NCBI GenBank assembly: GCA_016866975.1
Contig: VGKP01000008.1
Span: 1 to 36,803 of the forward strand
Source of the DNA: Candidatus Pacearchaeota archaeon
GTDB lineage: Archaea; Nanobdellota; Nanobdellia; Pacearchaeales; GW2011-AR1
Reading direction: 5' to 3'
Length of the DNA stretch: 36,803 nucleotides
Shown here: positions 1 through 36,803 of the stretch, one piece after another
Position numbering within the stretch: the stretch's first letter is position 1
How the letters are laid out: each line of letters opens with the position of its first letter
Made by a program: the position numbers and the translations under genes
The notes under the pieces: model-generated
What the model was told of the DNA's origin: nothing
Seen by the model: the letters and a program-made list of their open reading frames with translations, nothing else
Database searches by the model: none

Positions 1-126
1 CCCGAGCATCTCCAAAAACGAGCGCCTGCAACAAACCTCGGCTCATCAGGAATCTTAGATTCCTGACTGCCATCGAGGATTCACATCCTCGAGGTTTAAG
101 CCGAGGTGGCGCATCGTTTTTGTGAT
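1..126 (+). repeat. Palindromic AT-flanked element, copy A (5'-truncated by window edge; carries nested 51-nt module at 44-94)
   Basis: 1-43 is identical to 16348-16390. Ends GGTGGCGCATCGTTTTTGTG-AT like copy D. Confidence 0.9.
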
Positions 127-2747: not shown

Positions 2748-2994
2748 CTTTTTATACTGAGAAAACTGAATTTGCACAGACTATTTCTTTAATAGAGATA
2801 CGCAAATTCTGTTTTCGAGGTGTTCAAGAAACCTTGTTTTCTTGACAACGTGGAGAGGTAAAGCTATATTATAAATCTATAGAATACTTTGAAAAACTCT
2901 TTATAAGAAGATATTTGACTATCCTTTTGTTTATCCGATAATAGTATAAGACCTAAATATCTCAATTTTTAAGGCCTTATACTTAAGGAGAGTT

Positions 2995-5133
2995 TCATTT
3001 ACGATGTTTTTTCGACTTTATTCTATTCTTTACAAAGAAGTATAAAATAATTATTACTGTGGCAATTATTATCCAGACAAGAGAGTCGTTTATTCCAGAA
3101 GTTACTTCAGAGATAGCAGATCCTGTAATAAGAGATTTCTGTACTTCTTTTGGCTCACTTATGCCTTTGAGAGTAATGTTGATTGCAGAGTCTGAGACTG
3201 AGTTTACTTTAAGAGATAGGTCGTACAGAGTATCGTTTGTAAGATCTAATCTAGAAGACTCATTTGTCTTAAGGAATACATGCTGAGGTTCAGACTTAAC
3301 CTCAAAATAACCTTCTTTCAGGTCTTTGTTAATTTTTAGGAGTGTTACTGAATGAATCTCGTTATTAATCACAAATGATATCTTTTCTCCTTCCTTAAGA
3401 TTTTGAGTGTAGCCTGACTCCAGCTGAGTTGAGTTGATGGCCCAGACTTTAGGCAATATTGTCACTCCTCCGCCGCCTCCCCCGCCTCCCCCTGCTCCTG
3501 AACTGCTTCCACCTCCACCGCCTCCACCGCCACCGCCACCTCCACCGCCACCGCTTGATGGAGGAGGTTGAACTGGGGGTTGAGTAGGTTCTGGAGAGAG
3601 AGGTGAAACTCCTGCTCGACTCTCATCATAGAGCTGTTCTACATCTGAAGAAGAAAGTACTCGAGAATATCCGTAGATGGAAACCTTGTCAATCTTGCCT
3701 CTGTAATTAAGCCAACCAGTAGAAGTTGCAAAAGGATCCCATCCTAAAGCCCAACCGGTGCCCAAGGTATAGAAATACTCAGAAGAGTATGGCTCTTGGG
3801 TGAATTCCCTAGAGTTCACTTTCTTTCCGTCGAGATATACGTTCTCAGTCCTATTTGAATATGTCACTGCTATGTTATGCCAGAGAGAATCATTGACAGG
3901 CTTATCTGAGACGTATCTTCTGCTATCTGGATTGTCACCTGCACCAAAATTGTCCCAAAATAACGAAGCTCTCAGCCTGCCATCATGACCTATATAGATT
4001 GCCGGGAGAGCTCCTTTGATCGGCTCTTCTGGAGGAAGACTCGAAGATTGGCCTAAAATAACTCCACTTGAAGAATTAGTATTAAACCAAAGAGAAATAG
4101 AGACATTGTAGGCGTTTGCATCGTATTTTTTCCCTATCTCCGGATAGTTGAATGGGAAACTTGCAGTTGACATCTCTGCGTAAGAACTGCCATCAAAAAG
4201 ATAAGAAGGATTGTCTTCCTCTATAGATATACTTATGTTGCCTTTTGCCTTTAGATGCTTTCCATTTATCGAAGAGTCTAGACCATGGAAAAACTCTGGA
4301 TCCTCATCTGCGCTAAACCATCCAAGCATCCAGGTTTTCTGAATTTTTGTCTTTATCTCGGGAAATGAAGATATGCAGGCCCCCTGGGAACATCCTATAT
4401 CGCAAGCAACCAATTTTCCTAAAGGCATGTCCTGGTCACAGAAAAACTCTATCAATGAAGCAGTATTAATACAATTATCCACATAAGTATATCCAAAAGA
4501 AGTCGTGTTTGATTTTGTGAAAGGCTTGTTTCCATCGTCCAGGTCTGTGCATTGAGGAGCAGGTTTGGGATTGCAAACACCTTCAGAACATCCATATTCA
4601 CATTGAAATTCTTCCGATGTTACCCAATCTCCATCGCAGTAGAATTCAGCAGCCACATTGGGGCCTCTACATCCATCAGCGTAATCAATACCATTTTCTT
4701 TTTCTCCGAAATATCTGGCAATCCCTTTTTCACTATGATTTCTGTTGTCAGAGTCATAACAGAGAGGCATAGGAACTGGAAGGCAGGCTCCTAGAAAACA
4801 AGCGCTTTCGCAAAACCTGAGCTCAGTGTACGGTAGAGAATTATTGCAAAACATCTCTGCAACTGTTGTTGAATTAAAGCATCCATCTGTGAATGAGCCA
4901 AGATTGTAGTTAACTTTTCCTCTGAGAGCAGGATTCGCGCTGTCGGTATCAGTACAGAATAATTCTTCAATAAACGCATCAGTTCCTGAAATCTCTATTT
5001 TGGGAACATTGCTCTTATCTGCATTAGCTAGTAAATTTTGTACAAATTCTTCTTCTTCAGAAAGTGCGGAAGTGAAGGGAAGCAAGGCTAGAATTATGAA
5101 CACAAAAACTACTATCTTAAGCTCTCTAAACAT
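2995..5133 (-). CDS. Membrane-anchored surface protein: signal peptide, three 6-Cys CxDxD modules, LamG/ConA-like domain, Pro/poly-Gly linker, C-terminal TM with basic tail
   Basis: MFRELK plus a hydrophobic leader. LamG-type motifs SISLWF, WHNIAVTY, VYLDG, GKIDKVSIY. Ends with a TM helix and KNRIKSKKHRK. Confidence 0.75.
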   Translation of the reverse strand: MFRELKIVVFVFIILALLPFTSALSEEEEFVQNLLANADKSNVPKIEISGTDAFIEELFCTDTDSANPALRGKVNYNLGSFTDGCFNSTTVAEMFCNNSLPYTELRFCESACFLGACLPVPMPLCYDSDNRNHSEKGIARYFGEKENGIDYADGCRGPNVAAEFYCDGDWVTSEEFQCEYGCSEGVCNPKPAPQCTDLDDGNKPFTKSNTTSFGYTYVDNCINTASLIEFFCDQDMPLGKLVACDIGCSQGACISSFPEIKTKIQKTWMLGWFSADEDPEFFHGLDSSINGKHLKAKGNISISIEEDNPSYLFDGSSYAEMSTASFPFNYPEIGKKYDANAYNVSISLWFNTNSSSGVILGQSSSLPPEEPIKGALPAIYIGHDGRLRASLFWDNFGAGDNPDSRRYVSDKPVNDSLWHNIAVTYSNRTENVYLDGKKVNSREFTQEPYSSEYFYTLGTGWALGWDPFATSTGWLNYRGKIDKVSIYGYSRVLSSSDVEQLYDESRAGVSPLSPEPTQPPVQPPPSSGGGGGGGGGGGGGGGSSSGAGGGGGGGGGVTILPKVWAINSTQLESGYTQNLKEGEKISFVINNEIHSVTLLKINKDLKEGYFEVKSEPQHVFLKTNESSRLDLTNDTLYDLSLKVNSVSDSAINITLKGISEPKEVQKSLITGSAISEVTSGINDSLVWIIIATVIIILYFFVKNRIKSKKHRK
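3466..3552 (-). repeat. Poly-glycine low-complexity linker (mixed GGN codons)
   Basis: About 25 Gly in 29 codons, seen as CCN runs on the + strand. Confidence 0.9.
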
Positions 5134-5410: not shown

Positions 5411-6228
5411 ACAAAAAGGCGGAAACACAGACAGGATATCTTGTGCCTCTGATAGTGGCATTGATAGTACTTGCATTAGTCGTAGTAGGAATATGGGCAA
5501 TATCAAGTGGAAGGATAAATTTCTGGAAAGACCTTCCTGTGCCAGGAGAGAAAAATGATACGATAAAAGTGGAGAGCACAACTTTCAGGTATATAATCTC
5601 AGATGATGCAGTTGAATATTATACCGGGACTGAATGGCAAGGTTTTAAAGGCAAGAGCTTGGATATAGGGAACAAAAGAGTAGATTATGATGATATTAGA
5701 AGGCAGTTTAAAAGTTATTTCCACGTTATAAGACCTGAAGAGAGAATTGAAATAACCCGATATCAGAAGAAAATATACGATGGTGGGGAATATGGAGAAG
5801 TGCCATGGTTAGATGCAGTTTTATTTCTTATAGAAGATGTTGTACCAAATGGAATAAGAGAAAAGGGGAATGTGTTTGGAGTATTGGCTAATAGTGCTAA
5901 TAAGGGAGACTCTAAAAAATATGGTCAGTTCATAGTAAATCAAAAAGGAGAGATATTTATTAACAAAGTCAAACCAGACCTAGAGTTAGAAGGCAATTTC
6001 AAAAAGCAGAGTTCATCTGAAGAGCCTTATAAGATGATAGTTGAGAGAGCGATAGAATGGAGAGACAGAGTATTGAAGAAACCTGTGGAACTTTCATGGA
6101 GGGTCGTTGAAAAAGGGAAGGAAGAGAAGAAAGAAAACGGTAAATTCTGCACGGAAAAAATAAGCTTCCAAGGAGAGATTTCACTCGTAGTGAGACTTGA
6201 AAAACCTGCAAATGGAGAGACATGTTGA
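5407..6228 (+). CDS. Pilin-like protein (class III-like signal peptide), 273 aa
   Basis: MNKKA|ETQTGYLVPLIVALIVLALVVVG followed by a soluble domain. Confidence 0.65.
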   Translation: MNKKAETQTGYLVPLIVALIVLALVVVGIWAISSGRINFWKDLPVPGEKNDTIKVESTTFRYIISDDAVEYYTGTEWQGFKGKSLDIGNKRVDYDDIRRQFKSYFHVIRPEERIEITRYQKKIYDGGEYGEVPWLDAVLFLIEDVVPNGIREKGNVFGVLANSANKGDSKKYGQFIVNQKGEIFINKVKPDLELEGNFKKQSSSEEPYKMIVERAIEWRDRVLKKPVELSWRVVEKGKEEKKENGKFCTEKISFQGEISLVVRLEKPANGETC

Positions 6229-6341
6229 TGAATAAAAAAGGTTTGACAAGGAAAGAGCTGATGCAGTTGGTATTGTGGATTTTGTTCATAGTCATAGCCG
6301 GAGGAATGGTGTACTTTGTCTTGCAGAGAGTCTCATCTTAG
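6228..6341 (+). CDS. Micro-pilin, 37 aa (missing from ORF track)
   Basis: MNKKG|LTRKELMQLVLWILFIVIAGGMVYFVLQRVSS*. Glu at +5. Start overlaps the upstream stop (TGATG). Confidence 0.7.
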   Translation: MNKKGLTRKELMQLVLWILFIVIAGGMVYFVLQRVSS

Positions 6342-6388: not shown

Positions 6389-9300
6389 ATGAAAAGAGCA
6401 GGTGTCGCATTTGTTATGTCAAGGAACTTGACTAAAACTCCAGCTTTTAAGCTGGAGTTGTTCCTTGAGCATCCAAAAAAAGAGCGCCTGCATCAAACTG
6501 CGGCTTTTAAGCCGCAGTGGCGCATCGTTTTTTTGATTATTTCTGCTATCGCCGTATTCTTTCTGACTTTGATATCTGTACAAGGAATCTCTGAAGGGAC
6601 TGCTTTTCCTGATGGTAAATATTGCAAAGACAGTGACGGCGGAATATTCTCTTTCCAGAGAGGAGTAGTAGATTCAATAAATTTTTTAGGAATCCCAAAA
6701 AAGTATGAAGACAGATGTCTAGATATGAAAGGGAAAAGTTTTGTAAGAGAGTATTATTGCGATAATGAGAGAGGAAAATGGCAGGAGATGCCTTGCCATA
6801 GTGGATGTGACTTGAGGAAATGCATGCCTTCAAAAGTAAGCATAAAACTAGAAATGACTAAGGAACATTATGCTGCAGGAGAACTGATCGAATTGGCAGG
6901 GTACAAAAAGCTTGATTCCAAATCTGGTGCAGGCGCGGAAAAAATATCGCCTCTTACAGGAAGAGCCGTTGGTATTGGTAGTGAGGGGAGTGGTGGAGGA
7001 AGTGGAAGCGGCTCAGGATCTGAAAGATATTGTGCTTCAACACAATTGTTTGCCAAATTTTCTCTTGAAAATGCCAGACAAAAAAGGGAACTGGCTTCCC
7101 TGCAGAGGGACCTAAATTCATTGGCAAAGGAATCTTGCTCATCAAACAGTGAGTTTTTTGAAGAAGAAGTGGTGCCTTTGATAGAGATGAGAAAAGAGCT
7201 TCTTATAGAACTTATCCGCAGGTCTCCAGTTGCAGCACTTGAGACAAAACCTCTCCCTTCTCATTTTACAGAGAGGCTTAGTGATGAAGAGAGAATAAGT
7301 CTATTGGAAGACAGGAGTCCAAAAGAGGGTTATTTTGATATTGTCCATGAAGAAGATGGCAATGGGCTTGGCAAGAAGTTTCATTATTATTTACGTACTC
7401 AAGGAGATAATCAGAAGAAATATGAAGCTTTTCTTGCTCATGGTGAGCTACAAGAGCATCCCGGCTCTAAAGTCATTGTGCAGGGCCTTGCCTTAGATAA
7501 TGTTCTGGCATTGGATGATTCTCCTGCAAAGACGCAAGTCATTGATAAACCAATCACTCCAGCTCAGGAAAACCTTGGCAAGCAACGCGTCCTTGTCATA
7601 GTATCCAAAATAGAAGGCGTTCCTGCTCCTACGAGTGTTGAGGAAGCAAGGAAAGTTGTATTTGAAGAGGTGCAGGGATTTTATGATGATACATCATATG
7701 GAAAAACAGAACTTATTGGAAAAGTCATTGGACCATATGACTTAAAGTATTCAGAAGATAATAAGTGCAATGAAATAAAACTTCTTCTAAAAGAGGCGTT
7801 TAACCGTAAAGATATTGAATCGTTTGATTATGACCGACTTATCCTTGCTGTGCCTTGTACTCCTGGATGTAATTGTGCTGGAGGATCTGGAACTGTTGGG
7901 AAGATGATGAATTATGAACTTCCTAATGGAAAATATGCAAATTTTAGTGCTTCTTGGGACTTTGTTTTCTCTAAATTTGTTGTATCCCATGAACTGGGGC
8001 ATAATTTTGGAGCCCATCACGCAAACAAATATGAGTGCAGGAAGGATGCGGCAGATTATAGTGGGCTTGAAGTATATGGTCCTGCAAAATCATGTGAGAA
8101 TATGGAGTATGGAGATTCATACGATGTAATGGGTGGCGGTGGCTCATTCAATGCGCCCCATCGCTCCGAGGCAGGATGGCTTTCACCAGAGAATACTAAA
8201 ACTATTGAAGAAGGAACTTTCGTTCTGCGGCCACTTAATAAGAAAGTCTCTCCCGGGACACTCCAGCAGATCCGCATACCTGTCAATTTTGAGTCTGGAT
8301 TTTACTTTCCACCCGAAAATATCTTTTATACTGTCGAATTGAAGTTGCCTTCCAAGGAGGATAAACTCTCTGCGCCTACTGTTTTTCTCCATCTTGCAAA
8401 AGGCTCTGATGATGGAAGTTTTACGTTCTTACAGACCACTCTCTTTGAGCCAAGTGCAACTTCCGAAACTATAATTAATCCAGATGGGACACAAATCAAA
8501 GAGATACAGACCCATAATTCTTTGAAGATACTGAGTCCTTACATTGATCCTTGGAATGGAGTGCAAATAAGCCTTGTTAGTATAAGCGAAGAAGGGGCGG
8601 AGATAAAGGTTGAGAAGTTACAGAAATCTGGCATTAATTTTCAGAAACCTCTTGTTCATTATAATTTTGATGAGCAGACACAACCAAAGGTTCTGAATTT
8701 GGATGCTGATGGATATAGTACTGGACGCTTTAAAGACTCCTCTGAGAATGGTATTTATGCAAAAATTAAGGACAAGGTTCTTCGTATTGGAGGAGGGGTA
8801 TACGTTATGCAAGACTCAGCTTCCCAAAATTATGATAAAATACCTTCGCATATCTCTCTGAGTAATTATCCGCTTTCCTTTATCCAGACACAGAATAAGT
8901 TCACTGTTTCACTTTGGGTACATCCACAATCTTTTTCTTCATTATCTACATCTGTTTATTCAGGCAAGGGAATATCGATTCATATAATGGAAAACGGGGG
9001 AGTGTGGGCCAGTTCTCTTTTCAAGAATGTCCTTTATAGTTCGCCTTCTTACCATTCTGTTTTCTTAGCAGAAGTTGAGTATCGTGAACCTCTTAAGCTC
9101 ATGGAATGGCATCATATTGTCGTTCGTTATGATGGGTCTGAAATGTCTCTTTTTGTTGATGGAGTACTGCGTGATAAAAAATCTTCTCAAAAAATATACC
9201 CTATAGATTCTTCAAGCGAGTCTAAAGAGCATCCTCTTACAAAAGTTCATTTTGGAAGGTATGGGGACCATATCCTAGGTCCCTATTATTCTGAAGGGAT

Positions 9301-9780: not shown

Positions 9781-10995
9781 TTGTATGATATTGGAATGAT
9801 AAAAGGGGAAAAGAAGGATGTTAAATGGGGCAAGAGGGGCGCGCTTGAAGCATCAGAGACGGGAGAATGGACTCTGTTCATTATTGCTGCAGTAATATTG
9901 CTGGCATTTGTAGGGATACTTTATGCTCTTCTGAAAGGTTCTAGTGAGGATGATATATGCAAATTGTCTGTGCTTGGAAGGGCGACAACTCCTATAAGCG
10001 AGACGCAGCAGGCAATTCCATTGAAATGCGTAGCTAAAAAAGTATGCTTCAACGATGGCAGAGGGAAATGCGAAGAGTCATTGTTGGGAGAGAAAGGAGT
10101 CAAGGAAATAAAATTGCCCAAAGTAGATGTAGAAAATGAAGAGGCACTTGAAAAAGCTGCAGAGTTAATAGAAGAAGAAAGTGCAAGGAAAATGTATGAA
10201 TGCTGGAAGACAATGGGAGAAGGAAAGCTTGACCTTTTCAATGGGGTGAAAGTATCTTTTGGTATTGATCCGGTAAGAACTACTTGTGTGATATGCTCGC
10301 GTCTTGTAATAGATAAGAATGTGCCTTTAGAAGTCTTGGAGAGAGTCGATGTCAATGATTATATGAAGACACATCCAGTCACTTCCGGGAGCAGCATAAC
10401 ATATCTTCAAGCATTCACTGGAAGCAAAGACGTGAAAGGATATGCAAAATTCAATGAAGAAGTATTCAAGGTAGATGACAATGGCAGTTTTGATAATTCA
10501 AAGCTTGTTGAACAAAATGAAAACATTGCTAAGGGCTTGAAAGATAAAAGAGACAGGGAAATTGCCGAAACTGCCAAATTGGATGTTGGTCCTTCCTCAG
10601 GCAGGGAAAATAGAGAGCTTGCTTTTGTATTCATGCAGATAAAACCGAAGAGCTATTCAGAAGTGCTGGGCAATATGGCAAAGACTGGGGGATTAGTAGT
10701 TGGGAGCACATTCATGACTCCCGTAGTAAAGCCTGTCCGAATGCTCACTACGAAAATATTGTGGAATCCAGTAGGAATTATTGCAACAGGCGTTGCAGGA
10801 GTAGGCATTGCAGGATATGGGGCGTATAATGTAAAGCAGGGGCAATTGACTGCTGCAGGATATTGCGGAGAATTCACTACAAAAGAAAAAGAAGAAGAGA
10901 AAAGGAAGGGGTGCTCGATGGTGCAAGGATTGAACTATAATAAAGAGGAAATAAATGCACTTTGCGCAAGTATCCAGGGAAGACTCTATGAGTAA
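9781..10995 (+). CDS. Pilin-like protein, Cys-rich, about 400 aa
   Basis: KWGKRG|ALEASETGEWTLFIIAAVILLAFVG. True start may be the ATG at 9797 region. Confidence 0.65.
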   Translation: MYDIGMIKGEKKDVKWGKRGALEASETGEWTLFIIAAVILLAFVGILYALLKGSSEDDICKLSVLGRATTPISETQQAIPLKCVAKKVCFNDGRGKCEESLLGEKGVKEIKLPKVDVENEEALEKAAELIEEESARKMYECWKTMGEGKLDLFNGVKVSFGIDPVRTTCVICSRLVIDKNVPLEVLERVDVNDYMKTHPVTSGSSITYLQAFTGSKDVKGYAKFNEEVFKVDDNGSFDNSKLVEQNENIAKGLKDKRDREIAETAKLDVGPSSGRENRELAFVFMQIKPKSYSEVLGNMAKTGGLVVGSTFMTPVVKPVRMLTTKILWNPVGIIATGVAGVGIAGYGAYNVKQGQLTAAGYCGEFTTKEKEEEKRKGCSMVQGLNYNKEEINALCASIQGRLYE

Positions 10996-11000
10996 GGGAA

Positions 11001-11051
11001 CCTCAAGAACTTACGTTCTTGATGGCCGTCAAGGATTTAGAATCCTTGAGG
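11001..11051 (-). repeat. 51-nt twin-hairpin module, stand-alone copy
   Basis: TCAAGAAC-ttac-GTTCTTGA, tggccg, TCAAGGATT-tag-AATCCTTGA. Its reverse complement has the same 2+21+6+20+2 layout as 44-94. Confidence 0.8.
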
Positions 11052-15348: not shown

Positions 15349-15470
15349 ATGTCAAGGAACTTGACTAAAACTCCAGCTTTTAAGCTGGAGTTGTTCCTTG
15401 AGCATCCAAAGCACGAGTGCCTGCAACAAACCACACTCTTCAGAGTGTGGTGGCACATCGTGCTTTTGAT
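15349..15470 (+). repeat. Palindromic AT-flanked element, copy C (120 nt + AT), intergenic
   Basis: 119/120 identical to the reverse complement of 20767-20886. Confidence 0.95.
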
Positions 15471-16098: not shown

Positions 16099-16304
16099 GA
16101 GTTATAGCTTCTTGGATGATTCAATCTATCTATCCCTATATAAATTGCTAAGACTCCGCCAAAGATTCCGATAATGGCAATCCACCATTTTATTAAGAAG
16201 AACTGGGTAAATAACCCGATTATAAGGATGGTCGTACTAGTTACTATGGCCAGAATTCCGAGCAAGATATAGGAGTATGCACAGAACTTGACTCTTTTTG
16301 TCAT
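16089..16304 (-). CDS. Small 2-TM membrane protein, 71 aa (ATG at 16304)
   Basis: MTKRVKFCAYSYILLG... The ORF-track extension to 16328 is repeat-derived. Confidence 0.6.
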   Translation of the reverse strand: MTKRVKFCAYSYILLGILAIVTSTTILIIGLFTQFFLIKWWIAIIGIFGGVLAIYIGIDRLNHPRSYNSQL

Positions 16305-16422
16305 GTCGGGAACCGATGAAAACCACACCTTTCAAGGTGTGGTGGTTCCCGAGCATCTCCAAAAACGAGCGCCTGCAACAAACCTCGGCTTTTAAGCCGA
16401 GGTGGCGCATCGTTTTTGTGAT
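16303..16422 (+). repeat. Palindromic AT-flanked element, copy D (118 nt + AT), variant arm 1
   Basis: ATG-TC-GGGAACC...ACCACACCT-ttca-AGGTGTGGT-GGTTCCC-GA-G-CAT, then arm 2 as in copies A and H. Confidence 0.92.
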
Positions 16423-20619: not shown

Positions 20620-21891
20620 TTAGCTTATAAATACCTCCTCAAACCTCTCTAGTCTATCAGGTTTATTTTCTATCACAACAATCTCTCTGACAAGAGAGAT
20701 TGTAGATTTCTCTTTGAGATAAGCACAGCATTCTCCGATAGTCATAGACTTTCCAGACCGATACATCAAAAGCACGATGTGCCACCACACTCTGAAGAAT
20801 GTGGTTTGTTGCAGGCACTCGTGCTTTGGATGCTCAAGGAACAACTCCAGCTTAAAAGCTGGAGTTTTAGTCAAGTTCCTTGACATAAAAAGGCTCAGCA
20901 CTGCATAGGCCATGGTAGCAAGGATTGAATGTCGAACAATCCCTTCTCTTCTTGCGAAGAAAACCGTAGCAAAGCCAAGGTTTTGTTTTATGTCTCGATG
21001 GTACGTTTCTATTTTCCATCGCAGTTTATATGCGCTTATTATCTCAGCGGCATCATTGTCAATGTTAGTTGAAATAAGATGAGCTTTGCCAACAAGCTCA
21101 TCATCTTTGTTTGTCTGTTCTGATATGATCATCTTTACCGACGGTAGATTGTTCAGTATAACAATTGAAGACCACGTCTGATAAGTGTTGCCTTTAACAA
21201 CTGTTTCGTTCAATTTCTGAGAGTGGATTCTCTCAGAAATAAAAGATAAGGATTGCCATCTCCTTTTCTTGTGCAACTTTATCTTCCTGTTTGTCATTAT
21301 AGAACAAACAACTCTTGTCTTCATTTTGAGGCATTTTTTAATAAGTTCATGGTCTGAATACCAAGAGTCAAATAAAATCGTGTGAATCTTGATTTTTAAC
21401 GACGATAATCTATCAATCAAAGATTGAGCCATCTCAATCTTCGAGTCAGTATTTTTTGAATATAGCTCTGGGAAAATTGGTAATTGTAATAATGGAGTCC
21501 AAAGCAGAGCAGTAAAGAACTGATGTCCTTTAATTTGCTTTCCAGAATTATGGTCATGATGATACTGTGCTTCTTGCACGGTATCTCCATTCCTTTCAAC
21601 TAATGTATCGTCTATAATCAGATAAACTGGAGTATTCTTGAAGAGATACCTTGCTTTCTCCAAGTATCTCTTTGTAAGCATTTCTTGTTCACATTTTGCT
21701 TCTGTGATGGCATAATTCAGTTCAGATTGATGCCTTATTTCAGAGGAAGCCTCTGAAATTTTCTTTACAGTCTTATCCGCTAGTGAGATCAGGCCATTGA
21801 CATACTGAACGATGCATCTAAAGCTGCCTTTCGTAAACGCCTTCCTAGCAAACGCTAATATACTCTTTACCTCTTTTATAATCGGAAGCAT
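20620..21891 (-). CDS. IS701-like DDE transposase with 40-aa in-frame insert
   Basis: LIIDDT, ILFDSWY and YKLRWKIETYHRDIKQNLG (DDE with Y-x2-R-x3-E-x6-K signature). Confidence 0.9.
   Translation of the reverse strand: MLPIIKEVKSILAFARKAFTKGSFRCIVQYVNGLISLADKTVKKISEASSEIRHQSELNYAITEAKCEQEMLTKRYLEKARYLFKNTPVYLIIDDTLVERNGDTVQEAQYHHDHNSGKQIKGHQFFTALLWTPLLQLPIFPELYSKNTDSKIEMAQSLIDRLSSLKIKIHTILFDSWYSDHELIKKCLKMKTRVVCSIMTNRKIKLHKKRRWQSLSFISERIHSQKLNETVVKGNTYQTWSSIVILNNLPSVKMIISEQTNKDDELVGKAHLISTNIDNDAAEIISAYKLRWKIETYHRDIKQNLGFATVFFARREGIVRHSILATMAYAVLSLFMSRNLTKTPAFKLELFLEHPKHECLQQTTFFRVWWHIVLLMYRSGKSMTIGECCAYLKEKSTISLVREIVVIENKPDRLERFEEVFIS
20765..20886 (-). repeat. Palindromic AT-flanked element, copy E (120 nt + AT), in-frame in transposase
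   Basis: Encodes MSRNLTKTPAFKLELFLEHPKHECLQQTTFFRVWWHIVLL. Confidence 0.95.
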
Positions 21892-30716: not shown

Positions 30717-30788
30717 GCTCCCATAGTTTATCGGATAGAATGCAACCTTGCGGAGGTTGAGGGCGAGGTTCAATTCCTCGTGGGAGCG
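30717..30788 (+). tRNA. tRNA-Arg (anticodon GCG), intron-less, CCA not encoded
   Basis: Acceptor GCTCCCA/TGGGAGC; anticodon arm CAACC-TTGCGGA-GGTTG; T arm CGAGG-TTCAATT-CCTCG. Confidence 0.93.
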
Positions 30789-30836
30789 TATGAATTGAAA
30801 GTGCTCACAGAACTTCGTTCCGTGGCAACCTTCGTG

Positions 30837-30946
30837 AGGTCAAGGAACTTGACGCAAACCACACCTCATCGGGAATCTAAGATTCCTGACTGTTATCGAG
30901 GATTTAAATCCTTGAGGTTTAGGGCGTGATGGCGCATCGTGCTTTG
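30837..30946 (+). repeat. Palindromic element copy F: about 60-nt short form carrying the 51-nt module (30867-30917)
   Basis: GTCAAGGAACTTGAC-GCAAACCACACCT[51 nt]TTTAGGGCGTGATGGCGCATCGTGCTTTG. Confidence 0.85.
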
Positions 30947-30963
30947 AACGCATTCACTCAGGT

Positions 30964-30986
30964 GTTCAATTCCTCGTGGGAACGTA
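30964..30986 (+). repeat. Duplicate of the tRNA-Arg 3' end (att-like direct repeat)
   Basis: GTTCAATTCCTCGTGGGAaCGTA matches 30768-30790 at 22/23. Confidence 0.88.
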
Positions 30987-36344: not shown

Positions 36345-36415
36345 TAAGGGAACCAAGGTTCTCTCAGGGATTCATAATCCCTGATGACCGTCAAGAATCA
36401 GCAGATTCTTGAGGC
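36345..36415 (-). repeat. Twin-hairpin module, stand-alone copy (about 53-nt core, TAAGGGAACC flank)
   Basis: TCAGGGATT-cat-AATCCCTGA, tgaccg, TCAAGAATC-agca-GATTCTTGA, GG. Shares TAAGGGAACC with 10993-11002. Confidence 0.75.
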
Positions 36416-36449
36416 CTTATGGATCAACCTTCCTTTCAACTAACAGTTG

Positions 36450-36707: not shown

Positions 36708-36803
36708 ATGTCAAGGAACTTGACTAAAACTCCAGCTTTTAAGCTGGAGTTGTTCCTTGAGCATCCAAAAAACGAGCGCCTGCAACAAACCTCGGCTTTT
36801 AAG
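36708..36803 (+). repeat. Palindromic AT-flanked element, copy H (3'-truncated by window edge)
   Basis: Arm 1 is identical to B, C and E. Arm 2 matches A and D. Confidence 0.93.

What the first reader, a model, noticed from the sequence alone, without database searches (positions are those of the whole stretch)
44..94. Second 51-nt twin-hairpin module nested in the apical loop of the first element and also free-standing
Seen: in copy A the hairpin CGGCT|TTTAAGCCG is split by exactly 51 nt (2 + 21-nt hairpin + 6-nt linker + 20-nt hairpin + GG). Copy F is split at the same loop position by another 51-nt version (30867-30917). The same layout occurs alone and inverted at 11001-11051 (51 nt) and 36362-36414 (about 53 nt), both preceded by TAAGGGAACC. 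Stem sequences differ among the four copies but stay paired (TCA...TGA ends). Inference: a second mobile micro-element that targets hairpin loops of the first, giving a nested repeat system. Its length is a multiple of 3.
Basis: partly seen in the sequence, partly recalled or inferred. Interest (0 to 1): 0.78.

Follow-up and report, generated by a model that had tools for sequence, protein, structure and literature searches.

The report
Nested 51-base double-hairpin mobile repeat
A tiny (about 51-base) gene-less DNA element made of two side-by-side hairpins sits, cut in exactly, inside other hairpin repeats of a small DPANN archaeon and has entered them independently; no enzyme that moves it could be found.

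Summary
All four window copies (44-94, 30867-30917, 11001-11051, 36362-36414) are the same module, here called T.

T is two hairpins joined by 6 nt. Each hairpin is lengthened by a 2-bp clamp across a 1-nt bulge.

The genome is an 806-kb Pacearchaeota-type DPANN archaeon. It holds about 24 clear T copies plus decayed ones.
- T lies in the apical loops of both hairpins of the 120-nt element A (cut GCT|TTTAAGC).
- T also lies inverted in A's A-run spacer.
- The two "free-standing" window copies are not free-standing. They sit in a second host repeat (B) that has exact empty paralogues.

T moves independently of A. The same T (50/51 nt identical) occupies two A subfamilies that are only 76-83% alike, and both subfamilies have many empty copies. 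There is no target duplication.

The family occurs in 7 of 16 other same-genus genomes searched and in more than 100 metagenome contigs. Most metagenome copies lie outside A.

No partner enzyme was found. T-type hairpins flank no transposase gene, and the two T-richest relatives show no IS200, TnpB or IS110 genes.

The closest known analogue is the SMR-A repeats that invade PATEs in Haloquadratum.

This scan had already reported the same nesting on other pieces of this genome.

The parts
44..94 (+). T copy 1: 51-nt double bulged hairpin (CA, H1, CTGCCA, H2, GG) in the apical loop of hairpin 2 of a type-II element A
1..126 (+). Host element A (its 5' part is cut by the contig start). With T removed it matches the empty type-II copy at 16303-16422
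30867..30917 (+). T copy 2: a decayed version with two G.T pairs and linker CTGTTA, at the same loop position
30839..30947 (+). Host of copy 2: a core-deleted, single-hairpin form of element A. The whole insert is missing at the matching tRNA-gene spacer of relative G008
11001..11051 (-). T copy 3 (CC, H1, CGGCCA, H2, GG read on the minus strand), cut into a B'-type hairpin unit AAGGGAA|CTACGTTACCCT just after the stop codon of ORF 9781-10995
36362..36414 (-). T copy 4 (53 nt; CC, H1, CGGTCA, H2, GA on the minus strand), cut into the 5' arm of a B-unit hairpin (CATAAGG|GAACC)
36346..36440 (-). Host B unit of copy 4 (GTTGATCCATAAGG...GAACCTTGGTTCCCTTA). An empty paralogue lies at C7:31880
6416..6537 (+). 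Empty type-I element A, the reference for unfilled sites GCT|TTTAAGC and CCAAA|AAA
16303..16422 (+). Empty type-II element A, 98% identical to the host of copy 1 once T is removed
15349..15470 (+). Empty element A (type III hairpin 2)
20765..20886 (-). Empty element A
36708..36803 (+). Element A cut by the contig end. The assembly breaks inside this repeat at both ends of the window

Best explanation
T is a family of gene-less mobile DNA elements of about 49-57 nt, most often 51 nt.

Anatomy (shown):
- Two adjacent hairpins, each with an 8-9 bp stem of the form TCRRGRAY and a 3-5 nt loop.
- Each hairpin is lengthened by a 2-bp clamp across one bulged base.
- The two end dinucleotides pair with linker positions 2-3 and 4-5.

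Behaviour (shown):
- Copies are cut in exactly, with no target duplication.
- Hosts are other hairpin repeats: both apical loops, the A/T-run spacer and the T-run tail of the 120-nt PATE-like element A; B-type gene-junction hairpins; and introns.
- In the A-hosted copies the strand that reads CA...GG is followed by TTT.
- The same T entered two diverged A subfamilies independently.
- After landing, T is copied passively with its host. It does not stop the host from moving: the 221-nt element made of A plus two T lies at three loci.

Mechanism (inferred): T moves as folded single-stranded DNA. A trans-acting enzyme that recognises the TCRRGRAY hairpin would cut and join it. The outer stem of A's left module has the same motif, so A and T may share one machinery. 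An IS200/IS605-type Y1 transposase is the obvious candidate, but the evidence for it is weak.
For: Structure and ends:
- Folding z-scores are -3.5 to -6.7.
- Clamp pairing holds in 88% and 92% of 66 distinct genus copies, and in 64/66 and 64/66 metagenome copies. The next dinucleotide outward pairs in only 7-12%.
- Many clamp pair types occur: CA/TG, CC/GG, CG/CG, TT/AA, TG/CA, CT/AG, TC/GA.
- Stem positions 1, 3, 4, 6 and 8 switch between A-T/T-A and G-C/C-G pairs.

Independent insertion:
- T is 50/51 identical in type-I and type-II A hosts, which are only 76% (left) and 83% (right) alike.
- Each host with T removed is 96-98% identical to empty copies of its own type.
- In G000 all four occupancy states exist: none, site 1, site 2, both.
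- In G005 the occupancy patterns are not nested: {spacer}, {spacer, loop 1}, {loop 2, tail}, {all four}.
- Exact empty paralogues exist for five site classes.

Target bias: among 50 distinct oriented flank classes, position -1 is T in 34 and positions +1 to +3 are T in 36, 40 and 37. Loop enrichment is about 2-fold.

Spread:
- 7 of 16 other same-genus genomes and 2 other genera of the family have T, with zero hits to the reversed control pattern.
- 119 or more metagenome stretches match, and 52 of 64 usable copies lie outside A-type contexts.

Selfish-DNA features:
- 130 of 136 oriented copies are intergenic.
- Orientation relative to neighbouring genes is about 50:50.
- No gene recurs next to T.

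The composite of A plus two T lies at three loci with different flanks.
Against: No moving enzyme was identified.
- The IS200-type genes of this genome (C10:122-589, and a multi-copy one at contig ends) carry end hairpins unlike T.
- G005 (91% complete, about 42 T) and G008 (10 contigs, about 13 T) show no Y1_Tnp, TnpB or IS110.
- No Y1-like gene lies in 627 kb of T-bearing metagenome DNA.

Other weaknesses:
- T leaves only 2 nt outside each hairpin, too little for the guide/cleavage-site geometry known from IS608.
- No single conserved target tetranucleotide exists. The B-hosted subfamilies land at AAGG|GAACC and AAGA|ACC, not in T-runs.
- Each site class has its own T variant, so much of the copy number is passive co-amplification.
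- G.T versus A.C mismatches are 11:8, so no working strand can be named.
Confidence: 0.6

Rival explanations
1. T is not mobile on its own. It entered each host repeat once, long ago, and has since spread only as a fixed subtype of A or B. Recombination or gene conversion between host copies shuffles filled and empty states.
For: Within a genome each site class has its own T variant. Loaded hosts are clearly amplified as units: three copies of A plus two T in G000, and four-T copies in G005. In the 16 other same-genus genomes T was seen only where A is also present.
Against: T is 98% identical across hosts that are 76-83% identical, and the host stems 5-10 nt from T keep their type-specific bases. 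A conversion tract would therefore have to cover the loop alone. The same cut GCT|TTTAAGC is used in hairpin 1 in G008 and in hairpin 2 in G000 and G005. 52 of 64 metagenome copies lie outside A-type contexts.
Confidence: 0.2
2. T is a functional structured RNA or protein-binding module (for example a processing or binding signal) that selection keeps in transcripts. The covariation would reflect RNA function rather than mobility.
For: There is strong compensatory change in stems and clamps. Copies occur in transcribed, spliced places: a 23S rRNA intron and a tRNA intron. Recurrent units of about 85 nt, made of an outer stem plus T, are conserved across different metagenome organisms.
Against: There is no Rfam match. 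T shows no orientation bias relative to neighbouring genes and no G.T over A.C excess on either strand. Its occurrence is patchy and high in copy number: 0 to about 42 per genome within one genus. Decayed copies exist. T sits inside other selfish repeats.
Confidence: 0.12
3. T is a double-stranded recombination site. The inner arms plus the 6-bp linker resemble an 8-6-8 core site of a tyrosine (Xer-type) recombinase, which would insert or rearrange it.
For: The inner arms are inverted repeats around a 6-bp linker with a preferred NTGCCA. Two Xer-type recombinase genes are present. Earlier notes of this scan report Xer-linked cassettes in this genome.
Against: The outer arms and the clamps covary as hairpins, which a duplex core site does not need. 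The targets share no central region with T. Earlier notes quote TTATGAT as part of the arms of the dif-like site, which is unlike TCRRGRAY (not checked by me). A 51-bp duplex circle is not a plausible substrate.
Confidence: 0.05

Closest known systems
SMR-A small mobile repeats (HqIRS42/43/55) of Haloquadratum walsbyi, which insert into the near-terminal palindromes of PATEs and IS605-type elements (Dyall-Smith et al. 2011, PMC3119063)
   Same: Both are archaeal and gene-less, make no target duplication and reach dozens of copies. Both strongly prefer to land inside the palindromes of PATE-like elements. In both cases the means of movement is unknown (the paper calls it 'enigmatic').
   Different: SMR-A are about 110 bp with prominent terminal inverted repeats, so each forms one long hairpin. 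T is about 51 nt with two separate bulged hairpins. T also lands in non-PATE hairpin repeats and in introns. The paper proposes that SMR-A inactivate PATEs, whereas T-loaded A copies have clearly gone on multiplying. Sequence relatedness was not tested.
PATEs (palindrome-associated transposable elements), including the 52-bp terminal-only forms of HqIRS46 and ISHwa23 (PMC3119063)
   Same: Both have no terminal inverted repeat, no target duplication and hairpins at both ends. Both are very small and both occur in archaea.
   Different: PATE hairpins match those of co-resident IS605-type transposons, and PATEs follow a 4-6 nt targeting oligonucleotide. T hairpins match no transposon end found here, and T has no single target oligonucleotide. 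T's hairpins start 2 nt from its ends.
REPINs and their RAYT transposases in bacteria (Bertels and Rainey 2011, PMC3116915)
   Same: In both, the unit that replicates is a doublet of short palindromic repeats. Doublets are far over-represented, the copies are extragenic, and hairpins are predicted in ssDNA.
   Different: A REPIN is two inverted REPs that pair with each other into one hairpin. T is two self-paired hairpins side by side. No RAYT is present: the Y1 protein scores 31 bits against a cut-off of 80 for the RAYT model and 78 bits for IS200. REPINs are bacterial.
Very small dispersed repeats (SDRs) of Nostoc, and the modular BOX elements of pneumococcus
   Same: These are tiny hairpin-forming repeats that nest in other repeats and have no known transposase.
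   Different: They come from different organisms with different sequences and architecture. They are a lead only.

Membership tests
PATE / non-autonomous IS200-IS605 derivative | No terminal inverted repeat, hairpins near both ends, no target-site duplication | tested here: met
   Filled and empty sites differ by exactly the element in five site classes. There are two terminal hairpins.
PATE / non-autonomous IS200-IS605 derivative | End hairpins resemble those of a co-resident IS200/IS605 transposon | tested here: not met
   Fourteen Y1_Tnp loci in seven genomes carry no TCRRGRAY hairpins at their ends. The one adjacency (G009:C123) is a repeat inserted into the transposase gene itself.
PATE / non-autonomous IS200-IS605 derivative | Insertion 3' of one conserved 4-6 nt target that also serves as the left cleavage site | tested here: inconclusive
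   A-hosted copies show a T|TTT bias, but no single tetranucleotide. B-hosted subfamilies use AAGG|GAACC and AAGA|ACC.
PATE / non-autonomous IS200-IS605 derivative | A Y1 (HUH) TnpA available in the genome | tested here: inconclusive
   Present in G000. Not found in T-rich G005 and G008 nor in 627 kb of T-bearing metagenome DNA. MAGs often lose insertion sequences.
SMR-A (Haloquadratum small mobile repeats) | About 110 bp with prominent terminal inverted repeats | tested here: not met
   T is 49-57 nt. It has two separate hairpins, not one long inverted repeat.
SMR-A (Haloquadratum small mobile repeats) | No target duplication and preferential insertion into palindromes of PATE/IS605-type elements | tested here: met
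   In G000, 11 copies lie in loops of A hairpins and 7 in A's spacer, out of about 30. The same is seen in G005, G008 and G016.
REPIN-RAYT system | Two inverted REPs pairing into one hairpin, and a single-copy RAYT gene flanked by them | tested here: not met
   The hairpins are self-paired and sit side by side. The Y1 protein is IS200-type, at 31 bits against a cut-off of 80 for the RAYT model. No T copies lie beside it.
MITE | Terminal inverted repeats matching a DDE transposon, and a target-site duplication | tested here: not met
   There is no duplication at any of five site classes. No recurrent neighbouring transposase was found.
Known structured RNA family (Rfam 15) | A match at the gathering score | tested here: not met
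   The window gives only a tRNA. T-bearing metagenome loci give only RNase P RNA and tRNAs, at other positions.
Integron attC site | A single imperfect hairpin with extrahelical bases at the 3' end of a gene cassette, beside an integrase | tested here: not met
   T has two hairpins. It is dispersed inside other repeats and introns, with no cassette context.

The most novel reading that the evidence does not exclude
T is mobilised by a so far unrecognised activity of DPANN archaea: a structure-specific single-strand DNA cutting-and-joining enzyme, or a host replication/repair factor. It would read the TCRRGRAY bulged hairpin and would not be an IS200/IS605, TnpB, IS110 or RAYT protein. T would then be one of the smallest defined mobile elements, and a handle on how transposase-less hairpin repeats (SMRs, and perhaps element A too) move.
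Probability: 0.25. Interest if true: 0.8.

Novelty: new variant of a known kind. Interest (0 to 1): 0.55.

Why it matters
How very small, transposase-less hairpin repeats spread has been open since the REP and SMR elements were described. T offers an unusually clean case for three reasons.
- Its ends are fixed to the base by covarying clamp pairs.
- Its host sites have exact empty counterparts.
- It has entered two diverged host subfamilies with an almost identical sequence.

T is common in environmental DPANN archaea, whose genomes are tiny, gene-dense and otherwise poor in mobile DNA. T-loaded carriers keep multiplying, which argues against the idea that such nested repeats serve to disarm their hosts.

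There is also a practical side. These repeats break assemblies: this window begins and ends inside one. They also invade rRNA and tRNA introns, which matters when annotating these genomes.

Tried and rejected
- Coding or 'multiple of 3' meaning: lengths are 49-57 nt and copies are intergenic.
- CRISPR or tandem array: there are no spacers. The 36-nt and 71-nt tandem repeats are the separate B family.
- Known RNA families: no Rfam match. I checked by eye against my own recollection of the hammerhead core (CUGANGA...GAAA) and of the archaeal bulge-helix-bulge splice motif. Neither fits T or its junctions.
- Working-strand test: G.T versus A.C mismatches are 11:8, which is uninformative.
- Transposase partner: Y1_Tnp, TnpB and IS110 searches in the window's own genome and in T-rich relatives, tblastn of Y1 proteins against metagenome loci, and clustering of 619 ORFs within 2.5 kb of T all failed to find a linked gene.
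- Viral carriage: 2 hits in IMG/VR, no more than the roughly one I estimated by chance.
- Orthologous empty site for T alone: the G008 orthologue of the tRNA-gene spacer lacks the whole carrier, not T alone.
- The search for related loci with a neighbouring protein found nothing in metagenomes.
- A guide-like code linking clamps or linker to the target sequence: I tabulated it by eye and found no consistent rule.

Full report
**What is at the coordinates.**
Window 44-94 reads CA, a 21-nt hairpin (TCAGGAATC-TTA-GATTCCTGA), the linker CTGCCA, a 20-nt hairpin (TCGAGGAT-TCAC-ATCCTCGA) and GG. It splits CGGCT|TTTAAGCCG, which is contiguous in other copies of the 120-nt repeat A.

The same layout is at 30867-30917. 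It is inverted at 11001-11051 and 36362-36414. As single-stranded DNA the four copies fold with z-scores of -6.7, -3.5, -6.3 and -5.9.

The window is contig C8 of an 806-kb, 31-contig, 89%-complete genome. Its closest named relatives are Pacearchaeota/Nanoarchaeota MAGs.

**More than chance.**
I scanned the genome with no sequence constraint for two hairpins with stems of 8 bp or more, loops of 3-5 nt and exactly 6 nt between them. This gives 19 cases. In 18 of them both arms fit [TC]C[AG][AG]G[AG]A. Five shuffled genomes give 0-4 cases. Hairpins with that motif number 65, against 0-4 in shuffles, and 22 of the 43 clusters are exact pairs.

**Anatomy.**
I oriented 88 copies from nine genomes by their linker (NTGCCA taken as forward). 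The 5' dinucleotide pairs with linker positions 2-3, and linker positions 4-5 pair with the 3' dinucleotide. The module is therefore two 11-bp hairpins, each with one bulged base, set back to back.

- These clamps pair in 88% and 92% of 66 distinct copies. The next dinucleotide outward pairs in 7%.
- In 66 further copies from metagenome contigs the figures are 64/66 and 64/66, against 5 and 8 for the controls.
- Pair types include CA/TG, CC/GG, CG/CG, TT/AA, TG/CA, CT/AG and TC/GA.
- Stem positions 1, 3, 4, 6 and 8 switch between A-T/T-A and G-C/C-G pairs. The apparent invariance of positions 2, 5 and 7 is partly built into my search pattern, although one search shows that the motif itself is real.

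Lengths are 49-57 nt with a mode of 51. The 'multiple of 3' remark has no weight.

**Where it sits in this genome.**
About 71 A-family loci exist. T occupies these places:

- Site 1 is the apical loop of A's hairpin 2, cut GCT|TTTAAGC. Eleven copies lie in A-type hairpin loops, mostly here, counting decayed ones. Two of them (at C9:19799 and C9:21992) lie in other A-type loops; the first is a hairpin-1 loop.
- Site 2 is A's A-run spacer, cut CCAAA|AAACGAG. Seven copies lie here, and T is inverted relative to A.
- Eight copies lie inside units of a second repeat, B. B is built on GTTGACCCACAAGGAAACC-nnn-GGTTTCCTTAGGAAGG and lies at gene junctions, sometimes in tandem.

Both of the window's 'free-standing' copies belong to the B group.
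- 36362-36414 interrupts CATAAGG|GAACC, which is contiguous at C7:31880.
- 11001-11051 interrupts AAGGGAA|CTAC, which is contiguous at C7:4851-5031 (five tandem units), C12:8363 and C13:7867.

One more copy lies inside the 23S rRNA gene, in a group-I-intron-like insert. A T-type pair lies in the long intron of a tRNA.

In every class, filled and empty sites differ by exactly the element, with no duplication.

**Is it an independent mover?**
Three observations say yes.

- Same T in two host subfamilies. The T in type-I A hosts (C3:37445, C13:7450) and in type-II hosts (C24:4547 and the window's copy 1) is 50/51 identical. The host backbones are only 76% (left) and 83% (right) identical. Each host with T removed is 96-98% identical to empty copies of its own type. 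The type-specific stem bases begin 5-10 nt from T, so a gene-conversion tract would have to cover the loop alone.
- Occupancy states. In G000 all four states occur: none, site 1, site 2, both. In relative G005 the patterns are {spacer}, {spacer, loop 1}, {loop 2, tail} and {all four}. These cannot arise along a single order of acquisition.
- Same cut in either hairpin. Across genomes the cut GCT|TTTAAGC is used in hairpin 1 (G008) and in hairpin 2 (G000, G005, G016). T-runs are used on whichever strand carries them: the spacer on the bottom strand and the 3' tail on the top strand. The strand reading CA...GG is then followed by TTT. Among 50 distinct oriented flank classes, position -1 is T in 34, and positions +1 to +3 are T in 36, 40 and 37.

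Two observations limit the claim.
- Within a genome each site class has its own T variant.
- Loaded hosts are plainly copied as units. The 221-nt element of A plus two T lies at three loci with different flanks.

So much of the copy number is passive. It also follows that T does not block its carrier.

**Loop targeting.**
I removed T and folded 28 nt of host sequence on each side. This puts 27 of 70 distinct sites (genus set) and 21 of 64 (metagenome set) in hairpin loops. Random positions in the same hosts give 18-19%. That is roughly a two-fold enrichment, not a rule.

In the minimum-energy fold of A, the spacer A-run pairs with the tail T-run. Those two sites are therefore not strictly unpaired.

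**Distribution.**
- The pattern occurs in 7 of 16 other genomes of the genus, at counts from 1 to about 42.
- It occurs in two other genera of the family. The reversed control pattern gives no hit anywhere.
- In 400 further genomes of the phylum, five have one or two hits. One of these, G303, is unpublished, and nothing here rests on it.
- Element A is in 12 of 16 genus genomes, and T was seen only where A is.
52 of 64 usable copies there are outside A-type contexts.
- Some of those copies form recurrent units of about 85 nt, made of an outer stem plus T, that are conserved across organisms.
- Viral contigs gave two hits, no more than the roughly one I estimated by chance.

**DNA element or RNA module?**
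Of 136 oriented copies, 130 are intergenic. Orientation relative to the neighbouring genes is about 50:50 on both sides. G.T versus A.C mismatches on the forward strand are 11:8. There is no Rfam match. Decayed copies are common. This fits selfish DNA better than a strand-specific RNA function, but it does not exclude the latter.

**Who moves it?**
Unknown.

- The genome has an intact IS200-family TnpA (C10:122-589; 78 bits for the IS200 model, 31 bits against a cut-off of 80 for the RAYT model) and a multi-copy IS200-type element at contig ends.
- Their end hairpins are G+C-rich and unlike T.
- Among 14 Y1 loci in seven genomes, none has T-type hairpins at its ends. In G009:C123 a composite repeat has instead interrupted the transposase gene.
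- G005 (91% complete) and G008 (10 contigs) are rich in both A and T. They show no Y1_Tnp, TnpB or IS110.
- No Y1-like gene lies in 627 kb of T-bearing metagenome loci, and no gene family recurs near T.
- One lead remains. The outer stem of A's left module (TCAAGGAAC or TCGGGAAC) fits the T-arm motif and starts 1 nt from A's left end. A and T may therefore be read by the same protein.

**Comparison with the known.**
The nearest described case is in Haloquadratum walsbyi. There, SMR-A repeats (about 110 bp, terminal inverted repeats, no target duplication) insert into the near-terminal palindromes of PATEs and IS605-type elements. The authors call their mobilisation enigmatic. The same paper reports 52-bp terminal-only PATEs that may move (PMC3119063).

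T shares the behaviour but not the architecture. REPINs share the doublet logic but pair across the two repeats and depend on a RAYT (PMC3116915). My two full-text literature searches turned up no paper describing such repeats in DPANN archaea.

**Earlier work in this scan.**
Other pieces of this genome had already been reported as carrying 50-nt double-hairpin cassettes nested in the 120-nt element (e1-5229944, e1-2799066). My results agree. They add:
- the clamp covariation;
- the proof that one T entered two host subfamilies;
- the B-unit hosts of the two 'free' copies;
- the cross-genome site rules;
- the environmental spread;
- the negative transposase results in T-rich relatives.

**Limits.**
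All genomes are MAGs, and repeats break assemblies, so counts are lower bounds. The flank classes are not independent.

Noticed in passing
window 30768-30789 and 30964-30985: The 3' end of the tRNA gene (GTTCAATTCCTCGTGGGAGCGT) is repeated 175 nt downstream with one mismatch. The two copies bracket a filler plus the core-deleted A/T element. The G008 orthologue goes straight from the tRNA to the next gene, so the whole 175-nt piece is an insertion. Similar tRNA-end plus filler units lie at C9:7966-8213.
   Followed up: partly
G000 C6:6172-6219 (L130): A perfect T copy, and a single T-type hairpin at about 6066-6090, lie inside the 23S rRNA gene. They sit in the second of two group-I-intron-like inserts (weak Rfam hits at 4972-5098 and 5795-6154). 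The LSU alignment resumes at 6261.
   Followed up: partly
G000 C9:23775-23842 (L131 214-385, minus strand): A 172-nt tRNA gene has a long intron that contains a T-type hairpin pair.
   Followed up: partly
L107 (G009:C123) 719-895: An IS200-family transposase gene is interrupted, after ...TATCGATAT, by a repeat of about 175 nt. The repeat starts GTCAAGAA, ends TTCTTGACAT and is built of T-type hairpins. The hairpin repeats therefore also hit the candidate transposase.
   Followed up: partly
G000 C12:1-160, C5:47602-47700, C10:23345-23560, C7:4851-5075: These are tandem arrays of B-type units with periods of 36, 71 and 45 nt. The 71-nt unit carries a stop codon, a ribosome-binding-like GGAGAT and an ATG. 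This fits the gene-junction 'bridge' repeats noted elsewhere in this scan.
   Followed up: no
G000 contigs C2, C3, C7, C9, C12: Element A copies share one orientation within a contig (for example 8 of 8 plus on C2 and 15 of 15 minus on C3). T occurs in both orientations on the same contigs.
   Followed up: no
L167, L179, L219, L226; and L194, L201, L234, L242, L002: Two units of about 85 nt recur across unrelated contigs with unrelated flanks. One is GAGGACTTTGAAACA-T-CGAACCCCTAAAGTCCTC. The other is CCACGATTACTTAACA-T-CGTCCTAAGGATTAAC. Each has T enclosed by its own outer sequence. In L179 the unit lies 200 nt upstream of the RNase P RNA gene.
   Followed up: partly
window 2824-2845; also C5:2549, C10:12523, C17:7040: Single T-type hairpins are preceded by a shared TTCGAGGYGY and followed by CA. 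This may be a separate one-hairpin subfamily, or pairs in which one hairpin has decayed.
   Followed up: no
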